Below are positions 1,254-29,111 of a stretch of 37,127 nt of DNA, piece by piece (within the stretch, counting starts at the first letter, position 1; each line of letters opens with the position of its first letter). Made by a program: the position numbers and the translations under genes. Below the pieces are notes generated by a model. The model searched no databases. It saw nothing but the letters and a program-made list of their open reading frames with translations, and was not told where the DNA came from. This DNA comes from a virus (taxonomy: Duplodnaviria > Heunggongvirae > Uroviricota > Caudoviricetes), in the IMG/VR virus record IMGVR_UViG_2923339551_000001; one strand, written 5' to 3'.

Positions 1254-2147
1254 CTATTTCCAGTTACAAGCATCTTGAAGCGGTTTTAGTGCATTTGACA
1301 GGCCGCTTAAATTGAAAGTTGCACTTACAGGGCTTTCATTATAAGGGGTTATTTTTGTGTACATTTTATGTGAGTTGGCAAGTTTTCTTATGAAATCAAT
1401 ATCATTACCTTTATAAAAAACAGCCTTTGTATCTGTAGATATTAGCCAGTTTCTTTCAACTGCTTTCTGTTTATCAAGACGATACAGCATGCTGGTTTGT
1501 TCAAGGCCTAAATATACATCCCAACTAAGAAATACTTCGGTTTTCTTTTCTCGGCAAGCTATAAACAGAGTGGGAGTAACAGCTTCTCCAAATGGAGTTC
1601 TGATATAATCATCACTTTCTAACGATAAAATTATATTTTTCGAATCATCAATTGGCGATGTAGTAATGGACGTGTGCCATTTTCCTGCATCTGTGGCTTT
1701 CTCTAATTGTGATTCAGATTGAACAGCTTCATCCTGTGGGAATAGTTTATCGTAGCAGTTTAGTCTGGCTTCTTTATCATTTTCTGCTCGGCATTTAGAT
1801 ATTTCAGAAAGATTTGGTTGCTGAGCCTTTGTTGTTACTAGCTTTTCCGTTTTAGATTTTGAGTTTACAGATGGAGTAAATGTTGGAGAAAAAAAACGAT
1901 CATAACAAGATAAACGTTTGTCATCATCTTTCTCATCAGGGCATTGATCCCTGCTTTCAAATTTTTCAGCAACTTTCGTTCGAGTCGGTTGTATTGACTT
2001 ATCGTAACAAGAAAGTCTGTCTTTATTGTTTTCTATCGCTCGGCACTGGAGCACTGCATTGAAATTCTTATGTTCAGTTGCTGCATGAACAGGCAGTACA
2101 CTAATTGATATAAATAATGCACCTATAGAAAAAATCATATTTTTCAT
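1254..2147 (-). CDS. Hypothetical secreted protein with three Cys-containing repeats
   Basis: 297-aa ORF, AT-rich; N-terminal signal-peptide-like segment (MKNMIFSIGALFISISVLPVHA); three repeats of C-x8-9-RLxCYD(K/R)xF; family not recognised. Confidence 0.6.
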   Translation of the reverse strand: MKNMIFSIGALFISISVLPVHAATEHKNFNAVLQCRAIENNKDRLSCYDKSIQPTRTKVAEKFESRDQCPDEKDDDKRLSCYDRFFSPTFTPSVNSKSKTEKLVTTKAQQPNLSEISKCRAENDKEARLNCYDKLFPQDEAVQSESQLEKATDAGKWHTSITTSPIDDSKNIILSLESDDYIRTPFGEAVTPTLFIACREKKTEVFLSWDVYLGLEQTSMLYRLDKQKAVERNWLISTDTKAVFYKGNDIDFIRKLANSHKMYTKITPYNESPVSATFNLSGLSNALKPLQDACNWK

Positions 2148-2996: not shown

Positions 2997-3830
2997 TCAC
3001 CAAACGATGCGCCCATCTGATGTATGTCCTTTGGCTTGTTTTACTATACTGAAATCTACTATTCCATATGGATAAATTTTATTTACTTTAAACACAAGAT
3101 TAGCAACTAAATGCATTCTCGATTTAACTGTTTCTGTGCGCAAAGCGATATTTGAGGCCCCTTTTATTTTAGCGCTAGGATAAATGAGACCATCAACATC
3201 AGGGTATTTATCAAGAAGAAGACGGCAAAAAATTCTTGAGTAAATATAATTTACCTCATGGGCATTGATACTATTAAGCAACTCAGCAGAAAGGGCATCC
3301 ATATACAAATATGATAGCAAAGCACGGATGTCGTCCTTACCAATTCTGCTAATGATGCCACGAATTTCATTAAACACTTCAATTGAAATTGTATTTACAC
3401 CGTGATACACATTAAAGACCTCACCGATAGCAAAACATCGCATTCCAGACTCTGAATTTTCCGGCATCTTAAAGTGAGCTATGTGAACATAATCCCCTTC
3501 TTTTGCATTAATTTCGGCTAAAGCTGTTCCGATACTATAAGCGCCATAGAAGATAGCTTGTCCATCATCATTCATTCGGCCTATTTTACATTTTTCTGGT
3601 GGAGGGGGATATATTTCACTGATGTTATTATATCCGCATTCATTTGGGCACTTTCGCGCTCTAAAAATTGGTCTGTCATAACCGAACTTGAAATTAACAC
3701 CGCCATATGATTGAAGATACCATCTAAGTAATCTCTCTACTTTCTCTGGCTTTATAGTAGTTAGTAATTCTTTACGAAACAGATCAAGACTATTTAACTC
3801 AATTACCTTTAGCTTATTATTCATGACCAT
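2997..3830 (-). CDS. RES-domain protein (putative NAD+-targeting toxin), no adjacent antitoxin gene
   Basis: 277-aa ORF, AT-rich; motifs FRAR, GRMNDDGQAIFYGAYSIGTALAEI and GLIYPSAKIKGASNIAL match the Arg/Glu/Ser signature regions of the RES family as I recall them; no Xre-like partner ORF in the cassette. Confidence 0.55.
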   Translation of the reverse strand: MVMNNKLKVIELNSLDLFRKELLTTIKPEKVERLLRWYLQSYGGVNFKFGYDRPIFRARKCPNECGYNNISEIYPPPPEKCKIGRMNDDGQAIFYGAYSIGTALAEINAKEGDYVHIAHFKMPENSESGMRCFAIGEVFNVYHGVNTISIEVFNEIRGIISRIGKDDIRALLSYLYMDALSAELLNSINAHEVNYIYSRIFCRLLLDKYPDVDGLIYPSAKIKGASNIALRTETVKSRMHLVANLVFKVNKIYPYGIVDFSIVKQAKGHTSDGRIVW

Positions 3831-4873: not shown

Positions 4874-5983
4874 TCACTCTGTTTCTGCTATCCATTCCGG
4901 GATTTTTGCTTCAAGCTCAAGCTGCGTGGTAAAGCCACTGTTATCAATGGTGTGCTCGGCTTTCGCAATAATCCAGTCCTGATTATCAATCTCGCTTTTA
5001 AATCCTGTTACCGTGCCATGCATTTCGGGGTAGAGTTCTGCGCGTCCACGAGCCAGTGTGATGGAGAATGATGCGGCTCCGCGTTGTAGCTGCTGCCACT
5101 TTGCCGCCGCTGCGCGTCTTGCTGCCAGCTCGTTCTGATAAGTCTTGCGTAACACAAACACATTGCCATCCGCGCCTTCCATATAGTCACCTTCACGGCT
5201 GCTGCTTTTCTCCTTTTTGGGTTTTGGCGGTTTACGGCGTTTCACGCTGACTTTTTTCTTTTTCCCGTAATTAAGATCAAGCCAGTAGGCGCGTACCCCC
5301 GTATACGCCTCGCGGTCAGCAATACGGAATTGATGGCGATCGCCGCTGCTGCGTGTAATGGCGAACGAGGGCAACGGCTGGCCCTGTGCGTTCACGCCAC
5401 CACCTGGCATGATGAATAACAGATTACCGCTTTTTACCGTGGTGATTGCGCCCAGCATTTCCGCCATGCGCGTAAGGAAAGACATGTCGCTTTCTTCGGT
5501 CTGGTCGGCGTGGTCGATTTCGATATCCATCAGCATTTCGCTGATTTGCGGTTTCAGGCCGTACCGATGAGCGATGGCGGATACCACGCGCTCAACGGTC
5601 ACATCATGCCAGGATACTTCACGTTTAACGTTAAATTCATCCCGAAAATCTGCGCTTCTGGCTGAAACAGTCAGCCTGTCCGGCGGTCCTTCGTGAGCGA
5701 TTTCATCAACAATGTAAGTGCCTTTTTCTGTCAGCGGTTCTCCTTTCCAGCCAATGAGAACCGTCAGGCGCGCGCCCCGTGGCGGTAGCTGCAACTGACC
5801 ATCCGCATCATCCAGCGTGATGGTGAGCTGGTCCGCTTCAAATCCCCGGTTGTCGGTCAGTGACAGGTTCATCAGGCGCTCTGCCACGCCGGACAGCGTT
5901 TTACCCTCCGCGAAAATATCCAAATCCGGCATTTTCACGGGGTCTGTGCCCTGACTGAGCAATTGCATGGTGGTATCGGTCAT
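4874..5983 (-). CDS. D: Tail protein D (late control gene D family)
   Basis: Track ORF 4874-6115; I place the start at the internal ATG at 5983 (MTDTTMQLLSQG) because of a GGGAGGG Shine-Dalgarno 6 nt upstream; gpD-like sequence throughout. Confidence 0.8.
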   Translation of the reverse strand: MTDTTMQLLSQGTDPVKMPDLDIFAEGKTLSGVAERLMNLSLTDNRGFEADQLTITLDDADGQLQLPPRGARLTVLIGWKGEPLTEKGTYIVDEIAHEGPPDRLTVSARSADFRDEFNVKREVSWHDVTVERVVSAIAHRYGLKPQISEMLMDIEIDHADQTEESDMSFLTRMAEMLGAITTVKSGNLLFIMPGGGVNAQGQPLPSFAITRSSGDRHQFRIADREAYTGVRAYWLDLNYGKKKKVSVKRRKPPKPKKEKSSSREGDYMEGADGNVFVLRKTYQNELAARRAAAAKWQQLQRGAASFSITLARGRAELYPEMHGTVTGFKSEIDNQDWIIAKAEHTIDNSGFTTQLELEAKIPEWIAETE

Positions 5984-6140
5984 CTGTTCCCTCCCTGTGC
6001 GGCATGGTCGCATGTGCGTGCGGAAGGGGTTACTGCTTTTTGTTGTCGCCGAATCGGGAGAACGGCGCAGGGGTGAGATTACGCGCGTGGTGGGTGATGA
6101 TTGTTGCCGAATCATTTAACGGATACAAGGGGCTGAAGCT
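5984..6140. promoter_or_regulatory. Divergent intergenic region between D and FI (putative late promoters)
   Basis: 157 bp between divergent starts; contains direct repeats TTGT(C/T)GCCGAATC at about 6042 and 6098; no clean TGT-N12-ACA late-promoter motif identified by eye. Confidence 0.3.
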
Positions 6141-7325
6141 ATGAGTGAAACTCGTTTTCATGGTGCCCGTGTTACGGAAAATACCGACCTGGTAACAGCG
6201 ATTAACGATGTTGATTCCAGCGTTATCGGTATCGTGGCAACGGCGGATGATGCGGACGCGAAGCTGTTCCCGCTGAACAAGCCCACACTGCTGACCCGCG
6301 TCAATGACGTGCTGGGAAAATGCGGAACAACGGGGACGCTTTATCGTGCGCTTAAGGCCATCGCAGACCAGGTGAGCACAAAGGTGATCGTCGTTCGCGT
6401 GGCTGAACACAAAGAAGAAGACGGAAAGACGCAGGATCAACTGGTTATCGGTGGTTCTGAGGATGACGGCAGCTATACGGGGATGTATGCGCTGCTTGTT
6501 GCAGAGCAGGATGAAAGCATCGGATACCGTCCGCGTATTCTGGCCGCGCCGGAGCTGGACACGGAGGCGGTAACGAAATCCCTGTGCGTGATTGCAGGTA
6601 AACTGCGCGCGTTTGTGTATGCCTCATGTCACGGCTGTAACACGATGGCTGAGGCGATTACCTACCGCCAGAAATTCAACGAACGTGAGGTGATGCTCTT
6701 ATGGCCGGACTTCATCGCCTACAACCCGAAAAGTGGCAAAAACGAAACGTTCCCCGCGCCTGCCTATGCGTGCGGCCTTCGTGCGTACATTGACCATGAA
6801 CAGGGATGGCACAAATCACTGTCCAACGTTCCGGTTAAAAATGTGCTGGGGATGTCGAGGCATGTGTTCTGGTCGTTGCAGGCCGAAGACAGCGATGCCA
6901 ACAGCCTCAACAACAAAGAAATCACGACCATTATTCGTCGTAACGGGTTCCGCTTCTGGGGTAACCGCACACCGGAAACGAACGCCTACATCTTTGAGGT
7001 GTATACCCGAACCGCACAGGTGCTGGCTGATTCAATTGCGGAAGCGCAGTTTGAAACCATCGACAGTCCACTGACGCCTGCGAACGTGAAGGATGTTATC
7101 AGTGCCATCAGAGCAAAACTGGATTCGCTGGTTACTGCCGGGAAACTGATTGGCGCGGAGTGCTGGTATGACGTGGTGGATAACGGCACCACGGATTTAC
7201 GTCAGGGGCGTGTGCGTATTCGCTACAAATATACGCCCGTTCCCCCGCTGGAAGACATGGAGCTTTACCAGACGTTTACTGATGAATTCTTTGGTCCCGC
7301 ATTTGCGGTGCTGGGAGGTGCCTGA
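6141..7325 (+). CDS. FI: Tail sheath protein FI
   Basis: 394 aa; clear similarity to P2 gpFI (for example ADDADAKLFPLNKP...GTTGTLYRALKAI); ATG at 6141 verified. Confidence 0.9.
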   Translation: MSETRFHGARVTENTDLVTAINDVDSSVIGIVATADDADAKLFPLNKPTLLTRVNDVLGKCGTTGTLYRALKAIADQVSTKVIVVRVAEHKEEDGKTQDQLVIGGSEDDGSYTGMYALLVAEQDESIGYRPRILAAPELDTEAVTKSLCVIAGKLRAFVYASCHGCNTMAEAITYRQKFNEREVMLLWPDFIAYNPKSGKNETFPAPAYACGLRAYIDHEQGWHKSLSNVPVKNVLGMSRHVFWSLQAEDSDANSLNNKEITTIIRRNGFRFWGNRTPETNAYIFEVYTRTAQVLADSIAEAQFETIDSPLTPANVKDVISAIRAKLDSLVTAGKLIGAECWYDVVDNGTTDLRQGRVRIRYKYTPVPPLEDMELYQTFTDEFFGPAFAVLGGA

Positions 7326-7837
7326 TGGCTGTACCAAAACATCTTCGCTTTTTTACGTTGTTTGTGGATGGTGAAAACGAAGTGGGTAAAGTGACATCCG
7401 TCACGCCGCCCAAACTGACGCGCAAAACCGACAGTTATCGTGGTGGTGGCATGATGGGGGCGGTAAGTATTGATCTCGGTCTGGACGACTCTGCGCTTGA
7501 TGCGAGCTTTGTCATGGGTGGAGCTGTTCGTGCACTGTTTCTTAAGTATGGCGGCACGATTGACGGCACGCTGCTGCGTTTTGCGGGTGAATATTACACC
7601 GATGCAGAAAGCGATCTGTATGAAATCGAGATGCGCGGGCGTGTGACGGAAATTGATATGGGGGAGGCCAAACAGGGCGAAGCCACATCACACACATACG
7701 CTGTCAAAAACACCTACTACAAGCTGAGTGTTAACGATCGCCCGCTGTGGGAAATCGACCTGTTGAACCACATCTACCGGAAGGACGGCAAGGATATTGT
7801 GCCCGATCGCATCCGTTCCGCGCTTGGGCTTGGCTGA
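7325..7837 (+). CDS. FII: Tail tube protein FII
   Basis: 170 aa; similarity to P2 gpFII (KLTRK..YRGGGM.GA..IDLGLDD). Confidence 0.9.
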   Translation: MAVPKHLRFFTLFVDGENEVGKVTSVTPPKLTRKTDSYRGGGMMGAVSIDLGLDDSALDASFVMGGAVRALFLKYGGTIDGTLLRFAGEYYTDAESDLYEIEMRGRVTEIDMGEAKQGEATSHTYAVKNTYYKLSVNDRPLWEIDLLNHIYRKDGKDIVPDRIRSALGLG

Positions 7838-7891
7838 TAAGTAATATGCAGGCGACGCAGTGCGTCGCCTCTGACTGAAAGGAGTTTCCTG

Positions 7892-8257
7892 ATGAAAGAG
7901 ACGAAAAACATCGATACCGAAAACACGGTAGTTACTGACACTGTGAAAGAAACCAGTGAGCGTGGCGTAAAACTTACCCAACCCATTGAGCGAGGCGGCG
8001 AAAAAATCACGTATGTGGAGATCACCGGGGCTATTGAGCAGGCTGGATCTCTGCGAGATTTGTCGCTGTCTGATGTGCTGAATCTGAAAGCGGAATCCAT
8101 GTTTACGCTGCTGTCACGCGTGACATCACCGCGACTGGATGAAGTGACGATCAAAAAAATGGCATCCCGTGACTTTATTCAGTTATGTGTGGTTGCCGTA
8201 AATTTTTTGAGCGGTGCGGACTCTGGCGGGAAGAACGAACAGGCGACGGAAGCCTGA
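7892..8257 (+). CDS. E: Tail assembly chaperone E (zero-frame product)
   Basis: 121-aa ORF immediately upstream of the tape-measure gene; contains the TTTTTTG slippery site. Confidence 0.75.
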   Translation: MKETKNIDTENTVVTDTVKETSERGVKLTQPIERGGEKITYVEITGAIEQAGSLRDLSLSDVLNLKAESMFTLLSRVTSPRLDEVTIKKMASRDFIQLCVVAVNFLSGADSGGKNEQATEA

Positions 8258-8421
8258 TCACGGTTGTGTGCTTTGAGCACATAGAAGACTTTGTGGCGGA
8301 TATTGCCGCCATTTTTAACTGGTCGCCCGCCGAAATCTTCATGATGACGCCCGGCGAAGTGGTTAGCTGGCGTGAGCGGGCGGCACTTCGCAGCGGGAAT
8401 GCAGACAATGAAGACTCTTGA
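7892..8421 (+). CDS. E+E': Tail assembly chaperone E+E' (programmed -1 frameshift product)
   Basis: Slippery heptamer T_TTT_TTG at 8203-8209 in the E frame; the -1 frame continues as the track ORF 8185-8421; same arrangement as P2 E/E'. Confidence 0.65.
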
Positions 8422-11215
8422 TATCCGGGTCGCTTTCAGCGCCGTTGACAGGCTGACCCGACCTGCCGAAAACGCCCGCCGCCTGATGGGGCAGTTTGGT
8501 GACTCCATCCAGCGAACGCAGGGGGCGATCAAAAATCTCGAGCGTCAGGCGCGATCATTTGAGCGCGCCCGCGACGCTGTCAGTAAAGCGGATGCTGGCG
8601 TCGTGAAAGCACGACGCCAGCTTAACGCCCTTAATCAGTTACAACGCACGGGTACAGTGCTCAGCGAAAAACAACAAAAGCTGATGCAGCAGTTAAGCAC
8701 CCGGCTTGAACGCCTGAATGAATCGCGTACACGGGAAATTCAGAAAATGCGGGAGCTTGGCGGAGAGCTGAAACGCCACGGCATTTCCCTGACAGGCAGC
8801 GATAACACCATCCAGCAGGCCATCAGACGCACCGAACAGTACAACAACCAGCTTGAACGCGAACGGCAGGCGCTTGCGCGTGTAACGCGGGCGCGTGAGC
8901 GGTATTCGCGCGCGCAGGAAACCGCGGAAAAACTGAAAACAGGTGGTGCGCTGGCAATTGGTGCGGCAGCGGCTGGCGGCTATGCTGCCGGGCGTTTTTT
9001 GCAGCCTGCGATCGGGTTCGGGAAAGAGATGTCCCGCGTTCAGGCACTGACGCGAATCGACCAGAACAGCCCGCAGTTTAAGGCGCTGCGTGAGCAGGCG
9101 TTAAAACTTGGCTCTGAAACGCAGTTCACCGCAGGCGATGCCGCCAGTGGGCAGGCATTTCTTGCAATGGCTGGCTTCACACCGCAGGCCATTCAGGCTG
9201 CGCTTCCGGGCGTGCTGAGCATGGCAACGGCTGGCGGCATGGATCTCGGCGAGACGGCGGATATTGGCTCAAATATCCTGACGCAGTTCGGCCTTTCTGC
9301 TGACCAGATGGACCGGGTTGGCGACACGCTCACCGCAGCGTTTACCCGTACCAACACTGACCTTCGCGCACTGGGCGAAACCATGAAATATGCAGGTCCG
9401 GTGGCGGGTAAGCTGGGAATATCGCTGGAGCAGACCGCAGCGATGGCGGGCGTGCTGGCGAATATGGGTATCAGAGGGAGTGATGCCGGGACGGCAATGC
9501 GTGCCAGCCTGGCTCGTCTGGCATCACCGCCAAAGGCAGCAGCAGAGGCGCTGAAAGAGCTTGGTGTGGCAGTCTCTGACGCGAACGGCAAAATGCGCCC
9601 GATGGAGGATGTGCTGGCTGACCTTTATAAAGCCACCCGCAAATACGGGGAAGTTGACCGGGTATCGTTCTTTAAGGACATTGCCGGAGAAGAGGCTTTC
9701 ACATCGTTTATGGCGCTCGTTGATGCAGCGGGTGACGGTTCCTTACCCAAACTGAGAAAAGAACTTGAAGGCGCGCGCGGTGAGGCTGAACGCACAGCAA
9801 AGGTTATGGCCAACAACCTTGACGGCGATCTGAAATCACTCGGCAGTGCATGGGAAGGGTTGCGCATCCGCATTGCAGATCTGATTGACGGTCCGCTGCG
9901 TTCTGTCACGCAGTGGCTCACGCGGGTGGTATCAAGGGTGACGGCGCTGGCGCAGGCCCATCCGGTACTGACGCGCCAGCTACTGATAGCAGGCGGTGTG
10001 TTGCTGGCAATGACTGCAACGGTTGGCTCGTTGTCGCTGGCTATTGGTGTGCTTGCTGGCCCGCTGGCAAAACTGCGTCTTGGTTTTTCTCTCCTGACCG
10101 GATCAATGAATGCTGTCAGGGTCCTGCCAGCACTATGGGGAATGGTGACGGGTTCCGTTTCTTTGCTGGGAGGTGCTATCGGGGCGCTATTCAGTCCGGT
10201 TGGTCTTATCGTGGCTGCGCTTGCCGGAGCTGCCGTTCTTATCTCGAAATACTGGGATCCCATCAGGGCATTTTTTGCCGGGGTGTTCAGCGGGATTATG
10301 GAAAGGCTGATCCCGTTGCGCGAAACCTTTGAACAGTTTGGTCCTGTTTTTGACGCAATCGGAAGCGGGATCAGCCAGGTGTTTAACTGGTTTAAATCGC
10401 TGCTGTCACCGATGGAGTCCAGCAAGGAAACGCTGGATAAATGTACCAGTGCTGGCGAGATATTCGGTAACGTTCTTGGTGGCGCGTTACAGCTTGTTCT
10501 GACGCCTGCAAAAATGTTGCTGGATACGCTGGCGTGGATACTTGAAAAACTCGGTGTTCTTCCGGATGAAGCGGAAAGGGCGAGAAAGAAAATCGAAGAC
10601 GCACAGCGTGCGGCCATTCTTCAGGACAAGGTTGCCTTGCTTCAGGGGGACCTGGCGAAAATCAATCCGCCGAAGCCTGTGGAAAATGGCAATGGCACCG
10701 GAGGTGATAAACCCAAAGACAATAAACCGCTCACAGACAGCAATACCGGGACGCTACGCAGACTCAGCAAAATTGCTGATAACACAGGTAAGCTGGTTGA
10801 TGAGACGAAAAAACGCATTGGCCCCGGCGATATTGTCTTTAAGAACCTGCCCCGCGCACTTGTTGTTCGTGGGGAGTGGCAGGAGCGGAAGATTGCGCAG
10901 GTCAGTAAGCCTGCCACCGCAATTAATATCACACCCGTGGTTCCGGCTCCGCTGCCTCCGGCGCTGGTCCCTGTTGTTGCGGCCAGCTCCCGCCCGGTGG
11001 CGGAGGCCATACGATCGCCAGTGGCATCAGTTCCTGCAACTTCCCGTAACCGGGAACCTGTTGCCTCCGGATTTGGTGGTGAAATTCATGTTCATCTGCA
11101 TAACGTTGTGACGCAGAATCCCCGCGAACTGGCGAAACTGGTCGGTGAAATGGTCAGGGCAGAAATGGAACGGCGCGCCCGTGCCGGGCGTGGCAGTTTT
11201 TACGATAAAGATTGA
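8372..11215 (+). CDS. T: Tail tape measure protein T
   Basis: 947-aa ORF (GTG at 8372; in-frame ATGs at 8399 and 8408 are alternative starts); coiled-coil N-terminus, Gly/Ala-rich hydrophobic middle; position between E' and U. Confidence 0.85.
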   Translation: MSGRHFAAGMQTMKTLDIRVAFSAVDRLTRPAENARRLMGQFGDSIQRTQGAIKNLERQARSFERARDAVSKADAGVVKARRQLNALNQLQRTGTVLSEKQQKLMQQLSTRLERLNESRTREIQKMRELGGELKRHGISLTGSDNTIQQAIRRTEQYNNQLERERQALARVTRARERYSRAQETAEKLKTGGALAIGAAAAGGYAAGRFLQPAIGFGKEMSRVQALTRIDQNSPQFKALREQALKLGSETQFTAGDAASGQAFLAMAGFTPQAIQAALPGVLSMATAGGMDLGETADIGSNILTQFGLSADQMDRVGDTLTAAFTRTNTDLRALGETMKYAGPVAGKLGISLEQTAAMAGVLANMGIRGSDAGTAMRASLARLASPPKAAAEALKELGVAVSDANGKMRPMEDVLADLYKATRKYGEVDRVSFFKDIAGEEAFTSFMALVDAAGDGSLPKLRKELEGARGEAERTAKVMANNLDGDLKSLGSAWEGLRIRIADLIDGPLRSVTQWLTRVVSRVTALAQAHPVLTRQLLIAGGVLLAMTATVGSLSLAIGVLAGPLAKLRLGFSLLTGSMNAVRVLPALWGMVTGSVSLLGGAIGALFSPVGLIVAALAGAAVLISKYWDPIRAFFAGVFSGIMERLIPLRETFEQFGPVFDAIGSGISQVFNWFKSLLSPMESSKETLDKCTSAGEIFGNVLGGALQLVLTPAKMLLDTLAWILEKLGVLPDEAERARKKIEDAQRAAILQDKVALLQGDLAKINPPKPVENGNGTGGDKPKDNKPLTDSNTGTLRRLSKIADNTGKLVDETKKRIGPGDIVFKNLPRALVVRGEWQERKIAQVSKPATAINITPVVPAPLPPALVPVVAASSRPVAEAIRSPVASVPATSRNREPVASGFGGEIHVHLHNVVTQNPRELAKLVGEMVRAEMERRARAGRGSFYDKD

Positions 11216-11221
11216 GGAGTC

Positions 11222-11716
11222 ATGGTCATGATGATGATCTACGGCATGTTTGTTTTTGAGTTGCGCACATTGCCGCATCAGCAGTTACAGCAAAACAAAA
11301 GCTGGCGGCATGTGAAGAATGAACGCGTTAACCGCTCAGCAAGCTGGCAGTATATCGGTGCAGGTGATGATCGCATCGTGCTTTCTGGCGTGCTTTATCC
11401 TGAAATTACAGGTGGCGAAGTGTCGCTTTCGTTGCTGACCACGCAGGCATATACAGGACGCCCCTGGCCTCTGATTGATGGTGTCGGGCAGATTTACGGC
11501 ATGTATGTACTGACTGAAACGAATACGACCCGCTCCGAGTTTGATCGCTACGGTAAGGCGAAAAAGATAGAGTTTTCACTGACTCTTGAACGCTGTGATG
11601 AGGATTTGCGGGAGCGCCTGCAATCCTCATCGTTCAGCGATATGCTGTCCGGCTTCAAAGATAAGGTGACAGCATCCATTAACAACGCAGCCAGTTCAGT
11701 TAAAGGGCTGTTCTGA
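11222..11716 (+). CDS. U: Tail protein U
   Basis: 164 aa; similarity to P2 gpU (GMFVF...LPHQ...AGVLYPE.TGG). Confidence 0.85.
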   Translation: MVMMMIYGMFVFELRTLPHQQLQQNKSWRHVKNERVNRSASWQYIGAGDDRIVLSGVLYPEITGGEVSLSLLTTQAYTGRPWPLIDGVGQIYGMYVLTETNTTRSEFDRYGKAKKIEFSLTLERCDEDLRERLQSSSFSDMLSGFKDKVTASINNAASSVKGLF

Positions 11717-11886
11717 TTTAATGCTGGCCACTCATACCCTCATACCTGGTAATAAGTGGCCTGTCTTAACACTCACCATTTGATTGCACCCGTGTTGACG
11801 ATTTGTTACTGGATATCAGACACGCTGGATAGCCAGTAGAAACATACCATTAAAATTATTACAATAATTGGTCACATGATTATCTT

Positions 11887-12450
11887 ATGCTGAATAATAG
11901 AGATATGAATATTAATGAACTTAAAGACTGTATTCACTATGAAGTAATCGGTAGCGAGCGTCCTTTCTCCTGGCGAAAGGCAATTGTTCGCGCAATAAAA
12001 CATAGAAGAGTTCGTTATTTATTTTGGTGGCGCATAGCCAAATACCTTTTTGATAAAGGCGGATACTGTCGGAAGATTGCGGGGAAAATAGAACGTTTCA
12101 TTCTTGATAAATATAATGTAACAGTCCCTTTAACTGTAAATATAGGGAAAGGCTTTGATATTTCTTATCTCAACAGTGTTGTTATCGGTCACAAAGTAAC
12201 CATCGGTGAAAATTGTTCAATAAAACCAGGGGTAACTATTGGGCTACGTGGTGATTTTAATGATATGGATATTGTTATAGGACATAATGTGACCATTGGT
12301 TGTAATGCCACCATTCTTGGTGGCAAAGTGCGTATAGGAAACAATGTCACAATAGGTGCTCATGCATTGGTATTGCATGATATTCCTGATGATTCAACAT
12401 TCATCACTAAATTTCAGTCTGAAGTTATCTGCTCGTCCTCCCGCACATAA
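11887..12450 (+). CDS. Hexapeptide-repeat (left-handed beta-helix) acetyltransferase, WcaB/CysE-like; cargo gene at the G/FI (Z/fun) hotspot
   Basis: 187 aa, AT-rich; repeated [LIV]GxxxxIG hexapeptide motifs ([55 protein letters not shown]); 3' end overlaps the 3' end of G by about 37 nt. Confidence 0.7.
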
Positions 12451-13031
12451 CCCTGATTCATCAGCTCTGGCCATACGATATCCGGAGCTGTACTGGTGTC
12501 AATTCGACTCACTAATACTCTGTATTTTCTCCAGGAATCCAGTTGTGAAGTTTCCTCGTTTGTTGCTATTTCAAGATTAACTGCATCCTGCAGAATTGCG
12601 ATGTTATCTGTTGCCTCCTGGATCAACCTTGCCTTTTTCTCTTCCGCTTCCCGTATACGAAACAGTTTTTCTGCCTCCTCATCCTTCACCCAGGATACGC
12701 CGTCCCACTTCTGATACTCCCCTGCTGGCGACAACCAGGTGACATTCCCGGGTAGCGGGCCGGGTTCAGAAATGAACAACGCGTCCCCCGATGCCACGTC
12801 ATAGACCGTTTTACCACGATGGTCTTCAACAATATTCCACGACTCATTTTCACTGTTAAAAACTGCCACAAAGCCAGCCGGAATATCCGGTGGGGCGATA
12901 TCTGTAGAATTAGCTGGCAGCCCTGTATGAGCTGGAATATATGCGTCACCTTCACCAATAAACTCATTAGTTCCGGCCAGCAGGTTATAAATTTTTACAG
13001 TACGTGATTGTTCACTCATTCTGAATGCCAT
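12414..13031 (-). CDS. G: Tail fiber assembly protein G
   Basis: 205 aa directly downstream of the tail fiber gene; Tfa-like sequence. Confidence 0.8.
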
Positions 13032-15031
13032 TATGCAAGCCTCACAATATAATTAAATGCGATGTTTTTAACGGTGTTTTCCGTGTTACCAGTAGCGTTA
13101 ACAGTGATGGTGTGTCCATGTGAACCAATCGCAACGGAGTGTGTATGAGCGCCAATACCAACTGTATGTGCATGCGCCCCTGCACTTGCAGCAGTGCCTG
13201 ATACTGAGTGGGTGTGTGCACCAGAAGAAGGCACTGTTCCATTCCCCACGACCGTGCCACTTGATGCACCATCAAGCCAGTCGAAATTCATACCTCCACT
13301 GTTTGGTCTCCTTAATGGAACGGTATGAGTATGTGCGCCAGCACTATTTGCAGTACCAGATACATTATGGGTATGTGCACCTGTGTTATTCGTTGATTTA
13401 GTACCGTAATCAAACGACGATGTGGTTTTCGTACCCAAATCCGTACTGGATGCGCTGGCACTGTGGGTGTGCGATTTAATGCCATCCTGTTCCTGAGACA
13501 ATACGGCTCGACCACTTGCGGGTTTGCCCTTGATTGTCCAGCCACGCATATCGGGGAGTACACCAGAGGGATAAGCTGCTGCAAGCAGGGGATAGGTTGT
13601 TTTATCAAAAGTCTGCCCCTGCATAACGGCATAACCTGTAGGCACTGAATCAGATGGCCACGGAATCGCCGCACCTACAGGAAATGAATCCTGCGGCGTC
13701 CATGGTGTCCAGCCCCCCGTTGAGGGCTGGCTGCGGGTATAGCTTCTGGATGTGTTATACACATAGTAAATCTGTGTTATCCCGGCATTTTTAAGCACAA
13801 CCAGTGTACCCGCAAAATTCTCTGGGTATTTCAGCGCTGCACTTGTATTGGCATTCAGGGGCTGATGGTACAGCCCCGGCGTTTTGTAATTATCCAGATT
13901 CTGGTTTGCACCAATCTCAATACTCTGACCGTTAAAAATATCCTGTGATGTAACATTGACATCATTGGTCAGTGGTTTGCCATTAACCTTACGTCCAGAG
14001 GGCACACGCCCGTTTGCATTGTCATTAGCAGCTTTAACCGCTTTCGGGGTCGCGGCAAGCGTTTCAGACGTGCTGTTGGTTGCACTAGTAAGCTGGACTA
14101 TCCCTTTTTGTGCTGTTGTTGCATCCTGTGCGGTGTATTTGCCATTAGCAAGGTCATATGCTGCCTTTACCGCCTTTGGCGTTGCCGCCAGCGTTTCAGA
14201 ATCGCTGTTGGTGGCACTACTGAGCTGGACAAGACCTTTTCGCGCTGTGGTAGCGTCCTGTGCGGTATATTTCCCGTTAGCAAGGTCATTTACTGCCTTT
14301 ACTGCTTTTGGCGTTGCAGCCTGTGTTTCAGACACGCTGTTAGTGGCGCTACTGAGCTGAACAAGGCCTTTTCGCGTCGTGCTGGCATCCTGCGCAGTAT
14401 ATTTCCCGTTAGCAAGGTCATACGCGGCCTTTACTGCTTTCGGCGTTGCAGCCTGTGTTTCAGACACGCTGTTAGTGGCGCTGCTAAGTTGAACAAAGCC
14501 TTTTGCGGTCAGCGAGGCGTCCGGGTGACGTCGTGACTGTTCATGCTCTTTCAGTTTGTCATCCACGTAATCCACTGTGGCCATCACCATGGTGTTATCC
14601 ACGGTAAGCGCCACAGTGGCAGTGCTGGATACGGTCAGAATGGTGCGAAATGTTTGTGCACGCCCAGACCCTTCGGCAACGGTTGGCTTGTAACTTTCGG
14701 CAGTATTGCCCACCGCGATTAAATCGCCGTGCTCATCAAACACACCAATTTCCCGGATCCAGAATCCGCCCGTTTCAGGAGGAATAACCAGCTCTGCAAT
14801 AATGCGGTTCTGATGTGTTGCGTCCAGGATGATGCGATTAACAGTGTGTCGCCACACCTCATGAACCAGACGGGTCTGCTTACTGTCTGGTGTGGGCAAC
14901 GCGCCGCCACCGTCGCCCACGGCCATATGAGTCAGGCGGACAGGCTTACCATCTGGCGCGGCTGCCTGAGCTAATTTTTTTGCACCCGTATCGGTGATAA
15001 CGGTTTTAAATTTTCGTGTTGTGGTACTCAT
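13031..15031 (-). CDS. H: Tail fiber protein H
   Basis: 666 aa (P2 gpH is about 669); conserved N-terminus, four tandem ~41-aa repeats in the shaft, His-rich HxH-containing C-terminal tip. Confidence 0.85.
14000..14510. repeat. About four tandem ~120-bp coding repeats within tail fiber gene H
   Basis: DNA repeats visible by eye, encoding repeated KG(L/F)[39 protein letters not shown] units. Confidence 0.6.
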
Positions 15032-28151: not shown

Positions 28152-29111
28152 TTACTCCTTGTCCATTGCGTACAGCCCATTAACCAGAGCAAACTGTGGC
28201 ACCCCGTCCGCGATGAAAGTCGCATTAACTCCGCAGGCTTCGCGGATAGCGGGTGCCACAATCTCCGCCCCGCCACCGACAACCATCACCCGCCCGTAAC
28301 CCGAAAAACCCGCCAGCGCGCGGATCACGCGTTGTTTCAGTGTTTCTTCCTTTTCACGAATAACCGCCATCAGGCTGGCGTAATGCGCGTCATTGTGGAT
28401 GTGCTGGCGCAGCCAGGCTTCATCATGGCGATGTTCGATAATGGTATTGGCGATGTGGTGACTGGTACGCATACCGTTAGTGGCCATCACCGACAGTACT
28501 GCATCGGCCATCAGGGAAACGCCTACGTGTGGATCGCAAAACACCTGGCTGATACCTGCCAGTTGTCCCTGAACCTTTGCCACATCCAGCGTGGTTCCAC
28601 CTAAATCCACAATCAGCAGGGATTCAAACGGACTCATGTCAGCCAGTGCTTTAAAGCCAGCCGGAATGGATTCAGGCATAACCCGTACATTACGGATAGT
28701 GAATGCTTCGCCGTTCTGGTATTCCACCGGGCGCATAACGTTTGCTTTTTTGCGGTTGATGTTGGCCATGTCCGGCTGTGCGTTTGTGTCGAAATACTCG
28801 CTCAGTGGCAGGGTGACAACCACATCCACCTCCTGTGGCGTGATGCCTGATTTGACCAGCGCGTGATGAATGGCAATGACATTCACATCGCTGTACTGGT
28901 ATTGCGTGTCGGTCGTCTGGACAAAGCGATCGCTGACCGGATCAAAACCATAGCGCACGCCATCAAGCATGTAGTTCGCGGGCTGCGTGCCACCGAACGG
29001 CGCAGACCATTCCGACTTGAAGCTGTTCGGGCTGATGGCGTTGCGGCGTTCGCCGTTCTCAGTCCATGCCAGCTTGATGTTGGTGGAGCCGTCGTCGATA
29101 CAAATTTTCAT
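28152..29111 (-). CDS. parM: ParM/StbA-like actin-family partition ATPase
   Basis: 319 aa; N-terminal MKICIDDGSTNIKLAW, LIVDLGGTTLDVA and VVGGGA motifs closely match plasmid R1 ParM as I recall it. Confidence 0.8.
   Translation of the reverse strand: MKICIDDGSTNIKLAWTENGERRNAISPNSFKSEWSAPFGGTQPANYMLDGVRYGFDPVSDRFVQTTDTQYQYSDVNVIAIHHALVKSGITPQEVDVVVTLPLSEYFDTNAQPDMANINRKKANVMRPVEYQNGEAFTIRNVRVMPESIPAGFKALADMSPFESLLIVDLGGTTLDVAKVQGQLAGISQVFCDPHVGVSLMADAVLSVMATNGMRTSHHIANTIIEHRHDEAWLRQHIHNDAHYASLMAVIREKEETLKQRVIRALAGFSGYGRVMVVGGGAEIVAPAIREACGVNATFIADGVPQFALVNGLYAMDKE

What the first reader, a model, noticed from the sequence alone, without database searches (positions are those of the whole stretch)
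11717..12450. AT-rich hexapeptide-repeat acetyltransferase at the G/FI (Z/fun) cargo hotspot
The slot that holds the exclusion gene Z/fun in P2 carries a 187-aa left-handed beta-helix acetyltransferase resembling WcaB/CysE/NeuO-type O-acetyltransferases, in AT-rich DNA and on the strand opposite to G, as Z/fun is. Candidate roles are surface-polysaccharide modification (seroconversion or receptor masking), xenobiotic acetylation, or a defence function not yet described.
Basis: partly seen in the sequence, partly recalled or inferred. Interest (0 to 1): 0.6.

Follow-up and report, generated by a model that had tools for sequence, protein, structure and literature searches.

The report
Phage acetyltransferase-like gene riding a tail-fibre cassette
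A P2-like E. coli prophage carries a small sugar-acetyltransferase-like gene that moves between unrelated phages together with the tail-fibre tip and its chaperone. It probably alters a cell-surface sugar, but its function is untested, and its lineage has replaced the histidine that such enzymes normally use for catalysis.

Summary
An AT-rich ORF at 11887-12450 (+) encodes a left-handed beta-helix, serine-acetyltransferase-like protein. The likely true start is 11905, giving 181 aa. The gene is under strong purifying selection (dN/dS about 0.07).

- The phage is a Xuanwuvirus (P88-like), so the left neighbour is gpU, not FI.
- In P88 the same slot holds a DNA invertase and alternative fibre tips.
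- The gene is not free hotspot cargo. It is the end of a 1.85-2.06 kb cassette (acetyltransferase + tfa + last ~217 aa of fibre H) that is 94-95% identical in Xuanwuvirus prophages, 47-kb RepA phage-plasmids and P1-like phage-plasmids.
- It is not CysE, WcaB, EpsC, Vat/CatB or NeuO by score or by defining residues, and it matches no PADLOC defence model.
- Three non-phage relatives that I sampled all lie in polysaccharide gene clusters.

The unexpected point is at the catalytic histidine column (CysE His158). This monophyletic clade has Tyr94, almost always with Pro114 in place of Gln.

Best reading (about 0.4): a lysogenic-conversion or receptor-masking enzyme acting on a surface-glycan precursor, with altered chemistry. 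A non-catalytic role cannot be excluded. Published papers call the function unknown. Interest is moderate.

The parts
11222..11716 (+). gpU tail gene. It is the left neighbour of the slot and the last backbone gene before the variable region.
   Evidence: PF06995 Phage_P2_GpU at E 5.5e-39. Homology to P88-like phages stops at window position 11721-11725.
11717..11886 (+). AT-rich intergenic leader. It holds a sigma-70-like promoter candidate (TAGAAA-17-TACAAT, 11837-11865), which lies inside the transferred cassette.
   Evidence: Promoter scan (6 sites found against 3.5 expected, so this is weak evidence). The cassette's left edge is at 11817 in P1-like plasmids and 11836 in L116.
11887..12450 (+). 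Left-handed beta-helix, serine-acetyltransferase-like acyltransferase homologue. It is 187 aa as the longest ORF; the probable start is ATG 11905, giving 181 aa.
12166..12168 (+). Codon TAT = Tyr94, at the alignment column of the catalytic general-base histidine (E. coli CysE His158, WcaB His).
   Evidence: HMMER alignments to solved SATs put 'isYlns' against 'ldHatg'. Alignment A1 agrees. The sequence was read.
12226..12228 (+). Codon CCA = Pro114. The His-bearing relatives have Gln or His here among the fetched loci; Pro also occurs with His in the wider library. Pro114 is coupled with Tyr94.
   Evidence: Among 115 unique homologues from fetched loci, 20 are Y+P and 95 are H+Q or H+H. The one intermediate is P0013, with Y+Q.
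12414..13031 (-). Tail-fibre assembly chaperone (gpG/Tfa), convergent with the acetyltransferase gene and overlapping it by 37 nt.
   Evidence: PF02413 Caudo_TAP at E 3.9e-39. phrog_105 'tail fiber assembly' at E 3.4e-93.
13031..13684 (-). 3' end of tail-fibre gene H (the whole gene is 13031-15031). It encodes the C-terminal ~217 aa fibre tip that travels with tfa and the acetyltransferase gene.
   Evidence: Pfam domains of H.
11817..13684 (.). Mobile cassette (acetyltransferase + tfa + fibre tip) shared at 94-95% nucleotide identity by three different phage backbones. The left edge extends to 11626 in the 47-kb plasmids and phage 613R2.
   Evidence: blastn of the window against L002, L003, L004, L105 and L112.

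Best explanation
The gene is a single-gene accessory gene ('moron') of a temperate P2-like phage (Xuanwuvirus). It encodes a cytoplasmic, presumably trimeric, left-handed beta-helix acyltransferase of the short polysaccharide-cluster type (EpsC/WcaB-like). It is not a cysteine-biosynthesis enzyme.

It is physically bound to the receptor-recognition module. Fibre tip, fibre chaperone and this gene form one cassette that recombines between P2-like prophages, 47-kb phage-plasmids and P1-like phage-plasmids.

Proposed mechanism, all inferred:
1. The gene is expressed from its own promoter in the lysogen, and possibly also by read-through from the FI-U tail operon late in infection.
2. The protein acylates a sugar of a surface glycan while that glycan is still being built on the cytoplasmic face of the membrane. 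Candidates are the LPS core or O unit, ECA, colanic acid or a capsule.
3. This changes what phage fibres see on the cell surface. The result would be superinfection exclusion, protection of progeny from re-adsorption, or seroconversion.

The active site is not canonical. The general-base His is Tyr94 and its neighbour Gln is Pro114, and both are fixed in a monophyletic clade under strong purifying selection. The chemistry is therefore probably altered. One option is transfer to an amine, which needs no base, as in His-less LbH N-acetyltransferases. Another is use of a different base such as Asp128, which sits at the position of SAT His193.
For: Shown:
- Hexapep domain and SAT-like fold.
- The best NCBIfam models are EpsC, CysE and WcaB.
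- Three of three sampled non-phage relatives (P0085, P0025, P0028) sit among glycosyltransferase, sialic-acid and UDP-sugar genes.
- Proteus relatives lie between cysE and trmL, with ugd the next gene after trmL.
- The cassette is 94-95% identical in three backbones.
- Homologues at 37-53% identity are also convergent with tfa in Hafnia phage yong2, Citrobacter phiNP, P1-like JL22 and Ro157c2.
- 41 of 42 Tyr-type copies lie within 300 nt of a Caudo_TAP gene. Many of these copies are near-identical, so this represents at least four independent backbones.
- dN/dS is about 0.07.
- The same slot in phage Chuche holds a PHROG 'glycosyltransferase' moron.

Precedent and context:
- The prophage-borne LbH enzyme NeuO acetylates the K1 capsule (PMC3046976).
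- Putative prophage acetyltransferases were among the strongest predictors of two Klebsiella K-loci, KL30 and KL111 (PMC13123978).
- His-less LbH N-acetyltransferases exist (own knowledge: QdtC, WlbB). WlbB (3mqg) is a weak PDB match.
Against: - There is no direct evidence of any substrate, of expression in the lysogen, or of a phenotype.
- The catalytic His required in characterised LbH O-acetyltransferases is absent (PMC3046976; PMC13391359).
- E. coli carriers span many serotypes (O121:H19, O166:H15, O6:H16 and others), so the target cannot be one particular O antigen.
- The best-known phage seroconversion acetyltransferases are membrane acyltransferase-3 proteins, not LbH proteins (own knowledge; acyltransferase-3 proteins reviewed in PMC9558356, abstract only seen).
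- Related fibre tips and tfa genes (78-86% nt) occur with a His-type acetyltransferase of only 37% identity (JL22), and in lambdoid phages with none. The enzyme is therefore not strictly matched to the tip.
- 51 of 62 His-type relatives in species-representative genomes show no phage neighbours by a crude test.
Confidence: 0.4

Rival explanations
1. It is a pseudoenzyme. The beta-helix trimer has lost acyl transfer and acts by binding, for example by sequestering a nucleotide sugar, an acyl-CoA or a host polysaccharide enzyme, or by serving another structural or regulatory role linked to the fibre module.
For: - Tyr94 replaces the catalytic His and Pro114 replaces the coupled Gln.
- His is present in 125 of 131 short cluster representatives. 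Tyr occurs only in this clade plus one unrelated protein.
- The clade is nevertheless under strong purifying selection, as expected for a retained non-catalytic function.
Against: - The loops around the former active site (86-100, 110-131) are among the best conserved parts within the Tyr clade. The glycine/asparagine scaffold of the cofactor tunnel is kept across the family. Both fit a working pocket.
- No partner gene is carried in the cassette.
- His-less LbH transferases that are active are known (own knowledge).
Confidence: 0.2
2. It is a new single-gene anti-phage defence or exclusion function unrelated to surface glycans, placed in the post-G slot as Fun(Z) is in P2.
For: - It sits downstream of G on the opposite strand in AT-rich DNA, as fun(Z) does.
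- This is a variable slot in Xuanwuvirus.
Against: - No PADLOC model matches at E <= 1.
- A full-text search combining P2-like, hotspot, acetyltransferase and anti-phage found no papers.
- Relatives sit in polysaccharide clusters and in plain chromosomal sites.
- The other contents of the slot are fibre-related or glycan-related, not defence systems.
Confidence: 0.12
3. It acylates a small molecule (xenobiotic or antibiotic, or a free sugar as Maa/LacA do) and gives the lysogen a metabolic or resistance benefit.
For: - Weak matches to LacA, Maa, Vat and CatB models and structures.
- P1-like phage-plasmids often carry resistance cargo (PMC9600943 abstract).
Against: - Scores are 22-32 bits against cut-offs of 300-475.
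- The N-terminal helical domain and the fold are SAT/WcaB-like, not Vat/Maa-like.
- The catalytic His of those enzymes is missing.
- The tight linkage to the fibre module is unexplained by this reading.
Confidence: 0.08
4. It is a serine O-acetyltransferase that boosts cysteine supply or O-acetylserine signalling, which is what the database name 'serine acetyltransferase' implies.
For: - Depositors and RefSeq name it so.
- The best PDB sequence and fold matches are SATs.
Against: - TIGR01172 scores 70.5 against a cut-off of 210.65, and PRK11132 scores 44 against 397.
- There is no SATase_N domain, whereas a true CysE has one.
- Every CysE residue I could place at the acceptor and catalytic site is changed: D143->T79, D157->S93, H158->Y94, R192->M127, H193->D128. 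The mapping comes; the residue roles are from my own knowledge of the SAT structures.
Confidence: 0.02

Closest known systems
NeuO, the polysialate O-acetyltransferase of prophage CUS-3 (E. coli K1)
   Same: It is a prophage-encoded, cytoplasmic, trimeric left-handed beta-helix acetyltransferase that modifies a surface polysaccharide of the lysogen (PMC3046976). This is the best functional analogy.
   Different: - NeuO belongs to the MAT/GAT-like branch, with catalytic His147 and Trp171.
- NeuO has a 5' heptanucleotide VNTR that gives phase variation.
- Here there is no VNTR and NeuO is not among the PDB matches.
- Here the N-terminal domain is SAT-like and the catalytic His is Tyr.
Short SAT-like polysaccharide acetyltransferases (EpsC NF041874, WcaB TIGR04016/PRK10191)
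   Same: - Similar size (about 160-190 aa).
- A helical N-terminus followed by a beta-helix.
- These are the best-scoring curated models.
- Non-phage relatives sit in glycosyltransferase clusters.
   Different: - Scores are far below the equivalog cut-offs: 80.7 against 150, and 60-62 against 195.
- WcaB and the cluster relatives keep His at the catalytic column.
- This protein is phage-borne and tied to a fibre cassette.
Serine O-acetyltransferase CysE
   Same: The overall fold, and the best solved-structure matches. The database name also comes from here.
   Different: - No SATase_N domain.
- No C-terminal tail (own knowledge of CysE; not tested here).
- The mapped CysE acceptor and catalytic residues are all replaced.
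Same gene family as noted in the literature: 'sacF' of P1-like phage-plasmid JL22 and 'sat' (ORF4) of Citrobacter phage phiNP
   Same: They are homologues at 37-39% identity and are also convergent with a tfa gene. The papers list them as cargo of unknown or 'fitness' role (PMC9603915, PMC6456863).
   Different: Those copies keep the catalytic His and Gln. JL22 keeps cin and the alternative fibre genes beside it.
Fun(Z) slot of phage P2
   Same: It lies downstream of G, on the opposite strand, in foreign-looking DNA, and is non-essential lysogenic-conversion cargo.
   Different: - I found no sequence relation. Fun(Z) is much larger (its ORF spans about 1.6 kb).
- Here the far side of the slot is gpU, not FI.
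- The gene moves with the fibre tip rather than alone.
His-less ('class II') LbH sugar N-acetyltransferases such as QdtC and WlbB
   Same: They are beta-helix acyltransferases that work without a histidine base because the acceptor is an amine (own knowledge). WlbB (3mqg) is a weak match.
   Different: - They have no SAT-like N-terminal domain.
- They are only distantly related.
- Nothing here shows that this protein has an amino-sugar acceptor.

Membership tests
Hexapeptide-repeat / left-handed beta-helix acyltransferase superfamily | Hexapeptide repeats detected above the curated threshold | tested here: met
   PF00132 scores 47.5 bits against a cut-off of 27.
Hexapeptide-repeat / left-handed beta-helix acyltransferase superfamily | Predicted beta-helix fold similar to solved members | tested here: met
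   AF2 pLDDT 91. Foldseek probability 1.00 and TM-score (query-normalised) 0.6-0.74 to SAT structures.
Hexapeptide-repeat / left-handed beta-helix acyltransferase superfamily | Catalytic histidine in the loop that protrudes from the helix (stated for all members crystallised up to 2011, PMC3046976) | tested here: not met
   Tyr94 aligns with CysE His158 and the WcaB His. His is present in 99 of 121 sequences (120 database hits plus the query) and in 125 of 131 cluster representatives.
Hexapeptide-repeat / left-handed beta-helix acyltransferase superfamily | Homotrimer with acyl-CoA bound between subunits | not testable with these tools
Serine O-acetyltransferase (CysE) | Score above the NCBIfam equivalog cut-off | tested here: not met
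   TIGR01172 scores 70.5 against 210.65. PRK11132 scores 44.2 against 397.
Serine O-acetyltransferase (CysE) | SATase_N domain | tested here: not met
   There is no PF06426 hit. The genuine CysE of Proteus penneri has it at E 1.2e-37.
Serine O-acetyltransferase (CysE) | Serine-binding and catalytic residues (E. coli D143, D157, H158, R192, H193) | tested here: not met
   They map to T79, S93, Y94, M127 and D128. The roles of these residues in CysE are from my own knowledge of the SAT structures.
Colanic acid acetyltransferase WcaB | Score above the equivalog cut-off | tested here: not met
   PRK10191 scores 62.2 against 196. TIGR04016 scores 59.8 against 194.65.
EpsC-type EPS acetyltransferase | Score above the equivalog cut-off | tested here: not met
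   NF041874 scores 80.7 against 150. It is the best model and covers residues 30-173.
NeuO/OatWY polysialate O-acetyltransferases | Sequence relatedness to NeuO/OatWY, with the His/Trp active-site pair | tested here: not met
   Neither is among the 53 PDB sequences matched at E <= 0.001. The His is absent.
NeuO/OatWY polysialate O-acetyltransferases | 5' heptanucleotide VNTR giving phase variation (NeuO) | tested here: not met
   Tandem Repeats Finder reports only an 8-nt x 2 repeat, in the intergenic region.
Vat/CatB xenobiotic acetyltransferases | Score above the NCBIfam cut-offs | tested here: not met
   Scores are 22-27.5 bits against cut-offs of 300-475.
Known anti-phage defence proteins (PADLOC-DB 2.0) | Match to any defence-system model | tested here: not met
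   0 families at E <= 1.
P2 G/FI (Z/fun) cargo slot | Downstream of G, on the opposite strand, with atypical composition | tested here: met
   The P2 record shows fun(Z) on the strand opposite to the late genes.
P2 G/FI (Z/fun) cargo slot | Flanked on the other side by FI and its promoter | tested here: not met
   The flank is gpU (11222-11716). FI lies at 6141-7325, at the far end of an inverted FI-U block.
PHROG 2154 (phage protein family, function unknown) | Full-length match to the family profile | tested here: met
   E 4e-79, residues 5-186 on profile positions 2-184 of 185.

The most novel reading that the evidence does not exclude
The Tyr94/Pro114 clade may be a re-tooled or catalytically dead beta-helix 'acetyltransferase' that has become a dedicated companion of one tail-fibre-tip/chaperone cassette. 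It might work by a mechanism not known for this fold. Examples would be blocking or redirecting a host glycan pathway by binding, or using a Tyr/Asp-based chemistry on a new acceptor. Either way it would give the incoming cassette its own receptor-masking or exclusion function wherever it lands (P2-like, P1-like or 47-kb phage-plasmids).
Probability: 0.15. Interest if true: 0.7.

Novelty: new variant of a known kind. Interest (0 to 1): 0.4.

Why it matters
If the protein changes a surface glycan, then the swapping of tail-fibre tips between P2-like phages, P1-like phage-plasmids and other phage-plasmids carries a host-surface modifier with it. Host-range determinant and receptor modifier would then travel as one unit. 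That matters for phage typing, for phage therapy against E. coli (the gene is in 183 of 5426 complete genomes, including the O121:H19 STEC genomes in the top hits) and for serology.

The clade also offers a natural experiment on whether a left-handed beta-helix acyltransferase can work without its histidine.

The database name 'serine acetyltransferase' is misleading and should not be used for metabolic inference.

Tried and rejected
1. Housekeeping or auxiliary SAT: rejected on scores, the missing SATase_N domain and the changed active-site residues.

2. NeuO-type phase variation: no VNTR.

3. Known defence system: no PADLOC hit. A literature search on P2-like hotspots, acetyltransferase and anti-phage returned nothing.

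4. Inverted repeats 11843-11880 / 12254-12306 as a regulatory or recombination element: not conserved in the 82%-identical cassette L116 or in L005 and L131, and weak against shuffles. I treat them as chance.

5. 'The whole family is tfa-linked': rejected.
- Only 24 of 102 His-type copies have a Caudo_TAP gene within 300 nt.
- Downstream neighbours of the rest are mostly host genes, integrases or transposases.
- 51 of 62 species-representative loci show no phage-like neighbours.
- The tight linkage holds for the Tyr clade and for several phage-borne His-type copies.

6. 'The acetyltransferase co-varies strictly with the fibre tip': rejected. JL22 and Ro157c2 have a tfa/tip 78-86% identical in DNA but an acetyltransferase only 37% identical in protein.

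7. Chuche 'glycosyltransferase': Pfam gives no hit and only the PHROG name supports it. I use it as weak context only.

8. Literature: three papers mention family members (PMC9603915, PMC6456863) or a distant Streptococcus phage homologue (PMC6213268, not read), and none that I read tested a function. PMC9603915 says the reason for its presence 'is still unknown'.

Full report
**1. What is there**

The window is a P2-like prophage of the genus Xuanwuvirus (P88-like). The tail genes T and U are 95-96% identical in DNA to phages P88, P884B11, 503458, 520873, PhiR44_2 and Citrobacter phage phiSM.

The ORF map and Pfam give the following layout.
- FI (6141-7325), FII, E, T (8372-11215) and U (11222-11716) are on the + strand.
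- D (4874-6115), G/tfa (12414-13031), H (13031-15031), I, J, W and V are on the - strand.
- GPA replication protein and integrase lie at the right end of the window.

Compared with P2, where FI-FII-E-T-U-D follow G on the same strand and fun(Z) lies between G and FI on the opposite strand, the FI-U block is inverted here. The space after G is therefore bounded by the end of gpU, not by FI.

In that space lies the ORF 11887-12450 (+, 187 aa). GC content is 0.36-0.37 over 11750-12349, against 0.50-0.60 in the tail genes to its left. The 3' end overlaps that of tfa by 37 nt in convergent orientation.

Homologues and RefSeq annotations begin at Met7. I therefore take ATG 11905 as the likely start, giving 181 aa. 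A promoter-like site (TAGAAA-17-TACAAT) lies at 11837-11865, but the scan is only weakly above shuffles.

**2. Is it a real gene, and of what family?**

- Pfam Hexapep scores 47.5 bits against a cut-off of 27.
- phrog_2154, a family of unknown function, matches at E 4e-79 over the full length.
- AlphaFold2 with a 94-sequence alignment gives pLDDT 91. The model has four N-terminal helices followed by a beta-helix.
- All top Foldseek PDB matches are serine acetyltransferases, and so are the top sequence matches.
- dN/dS against cassette copies with 95% and 90% protein identity is 0.073 and 0.074. That is as low as, or lower than, the neighbouring tfa gene (0.16 and 0.11).

The gene is therefore functional and constrained.

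**3. What it is not**

It is not CysE.
- NCBIfam CysE models score 70.5 against 210.65 and 44 against 397.
- There is no SATase_N domain, while a real CysE scanned in the same way has one.
- The residues that bind serine and catalyse transfer in E. coli CysE map to T79, S93, Y94, M127 and D128 (alignments). The CysE residues are D143, D157, H158, R192 and H193; their roles are from my own knowledge of the SAT structures.

It does not pass the WcaB cut-off (62 against 196) or the EpsC cut-off (80.7 against 150), although these are the nearest curated models.

Vat and CatB models score 22-27 bits against cut-offs of 300-475.

NeuO and OatWY are not among the 53 PDB sequence matches, and the gene has no 5' tandem repeat.

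No PADLOC defence model matches.

**4. Surroundings and mobility**

The region from about 11817 to 13684 comprises the promoter region, the acetyltransferase homologue, tfa and the last ~217 codons of fibre gene H. It recurs at 94-95% nucleotide identity in three kinds of element (annotated contexts).
- 47-kb RepA phage-plasmids and phage vB_EcoM-613R2. Here the shared stretch starts at 11626 and so includes the last 90 nt of gpU, placed next to repA.
- P1-like phage-plasmids of 94-119 kb. Here the cassette occupies the place that cin and the alternative S'/U' fibre genes occupy in P1-like JL22.
- Xuanwuvirus prophages.

In complete E. coli genomes the gene is present in 183 of 5426 genomes, at 158 chromosomal and 59 plasmid places. 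Carriers include many O121:H19 strains as well as O166:H15 and O6:H16. PLSDB holds 58 plasmids with it, 55 of them non-mobilizable.

The U|G slot of other Xuanwuviruses holds different contents.
- A DNA invertase plus an invertible fibre-tip/tfa segment in P88, phiSM and 503458.
- No annotated gene in PhiR44_2.
- A gene of phrog_1962 'glycosyltransferase' in Chuche. It has no Pfam hit.
- A His-type homologue 52% identical to this protein in IMG/VR contigs L131 and L132.

More distant homologues (37-53% identity) are also convergent with a tfa gene in Hafnia phage yong2, Citrobacter phage phiNP and the P1-like phages JL22 and Ro157c2.

The association with fibre modules is therefore old and recurrent, but it is not universal.
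- P0020 (E. coli) sits at the edge of a P2-like prophage, about 4 kb beyond tfa.
- In the ESSI2 phage record ev015 the gene lies just after the integrase gene.
- Of the His-type copies in one-genome-per-species loci, 51 of 62 have no phage-like neighbours by a crude blast test.
- In Proteus the gene sits between the genuine cysE and trmL; ugd is the next gene after trmL.

**5. The active site**

In alignments to solved SATs, and to WcaB and CysE, the general-base histidine column holds Tyr94.
- Across 121 sequences (120 database hits plus the query) the column is His in 99, Tyr in 18 and Asn in 4.
- Across 131 short representatives of 50%-identity clusters it is His in 125. It is Tyr only in this clade (3 representatives) plus one unrelated protein.
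- Among 115 unique homologues from fetched loci, Tyr94 always comes with Pro114, and His always comes with Gln or His at position 114.
- One database protein, P0013, has Tyr with Gln and branches at the base of the clade.
- In a neighbour-joining tree the Tyr clade is monophyletic and nested inside the His-bearing enterobacterial family. This suggests the path H,Q -> Y,Q -> Y,P.

Within the Tyr clade (down to 53% identity) the loops around the former active site are among the most conserved segments.

The NeuO structure paper states that all LbH members crystallised by then share a catalytic histidine (PMC3046976). A 2026 study again found the active-site His to be required in Maa-like enzymes (PMC13391359). 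His-less LbH N-acetyltransferases are known (own knowledge: QdtC, WlbB). So the substitution may mean a change of chemistry rather than a loss of function. I could not inspect model coordinates, so the idea that Asp128 or Lys113 assists Tyr94 is inference only.

**6. Function**

The three non-phage relatives I sampled (P0085, P0025, P0028) all lie inside clusters of glycosyltransferases, sialic-acid or CMP-sugar genes and UDP-sugar dehydrogenases.

Several observations point the same way:
- the EpsC/WcaB-like profile;
- the NeuO precedent;
- the Klebsiella genome-wide association result that putative prophage acetyltransferases were among the strongest predictors of two K-loci (PMC13123978);
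- a putative glycosyltransferase in the same slot of a sister phage;
- the physical coupling to the receptor-binding module.

Together they support modification of a surface-glycan precursor that alters phage receptors or serology. I rate this at about 0.4.

Points against this reading:
- the missing catalytic His;
- the wide range of carrier serotypes;
- the lack of strict co-variation with the fibre tip. JL22 has a tip/tfa 78-86% identical in DNA but an acetyltransferase only 37% identical in protein;
- the complete absence of experimental data. Papers that mention the family list it as cargo, and one says its role 'is still unknown' (PMC9603915, PMC6456863).

Rivals and my ratings: pseudoenzyme 0.2, new defence or exclusion function 0.12, small-molecule acylation 0.08, true SAT 0.02.

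**7. Verdict**

This is a previously annotated but uncharacterised phage accessory gene. What is new here is:
- its membership of a mobile fibre-tip/tfa cassette shared by three phage backbones;
- the conserved replacement of the catalytic His and its coupled Gln by Tyr and Pro, under strong purifying selection;
- the demonstration that the name 'serine acetyltransferase' is wrong.

I class it as a new variant of a known kind, of moderate interest (0.4).

Noticed in passing
window 4874-11716: The FI-FII-E-T-U tail block is on the strand opposite to D, G, H, I, J, W and V. It is therefore inverted relative to P2, where all of these genes share one strand. P88 shows the same FI-U versus G/H orientation, and the sister Xuanwuviruses examined also have U convergent with G/H.
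   Followed up: partly
window 1254-2147 (-), 2997-3830 (-), 28152-29111 (-): There is other probable cargo in the same prophage. One protein has a T6SS VasI-like domain (PF11319). One is a RES-domain protein, which may be a toxin. One is a ParM-like actin segregation protein.
   Followed up: no
window 11843-11880 versus 12254-12306: The promoter/leader region is partly complementary to a stretch inside the coding region about 400 nt away (14 nt at 93% and 23 nt at 83%). The pairing is not conserved in diverged copies and is probably chance.
   Followed up: yes
window 12424-12450: The last 7-8 residues of the protein (CSSSRT) differ from the 'IPKK...' tails of homologues. They are encoded antisense to the 3' end of tfa. 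This suggests that the original stop codon was lost at a recombination joint.
   Followed up: partly
L003 5896-6000 (plasmid p853EC2, NZ_CP040921.1): The 47-kb RepA phage-plasmids keep the last ~90 nt of a Xuanwuvirus-type gpU gene upstream of the cassette, between repA and the acetyltransferase gene. It is a footprint of where the cassette came from.
   Followed up: partly
L008 773-5120 (phage JL22, ON018986.2): In P1-like JL22 the His-type homologue lies between the alternative fibre genes (cin, S, U) and the expressed stf-tfa pair. It may therefore lie inside or at the edge of the invertible C segment.
   Followed up: no
L016-L019, L023, L028, L030, L033, L067 (Proteus species): I checked the full gene order in L019. 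There, a 185-aa His-type homologue sits directly after the genuine cysE (gpsA-cysE-homologue) and is convergent with trmL and ugd. There are no phage genes within 6 kb. The other Proteus loci fall in the same clade of the tree, and several show the same 167-aa and 388-aa convergent ORFs downstream.
   Followed up: partly
L010 4010-4537 (Streptococcus phage 9871, NC_031069.1) and about 20 other S. thermophilus phages: A distant homologue (31% identity) annotated 'serine acetyltransferase' sits between the last virion structural gene and the holin genes.
   Followed up: no
L050 5387-5935 and 6001-6564; also two loci each in Salmonella enterica s1 (L014, L046), Buttiauxella massiliensis (L032, L043), Proteus columbae (L017, L045) and Intestinirhabdus alba (L015, L035): One genome (L050, a Buttiauxella MAG) carries two tandem paralogues of the family, and several genomes carry two unlinked copies.
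   Followed up: no
L128 6486-6977 (IMGVR_UViG_2721755712_000003): This Xuanwuvirus copy keeps the acetyltransferase gene (homology runs to window 12372, just short of its 3' end) but has lost tfa, H and part of the baseplate genes. Homology resumes at window 15646, so the prophage is degraded.
   Followed up: no
window 14011-14545: Fibre gene H contains about four tandem ~132-nt repeats (Phage_fiber_2 repeats). These cross-match one another in blastn against relatives.
   Followed up: no
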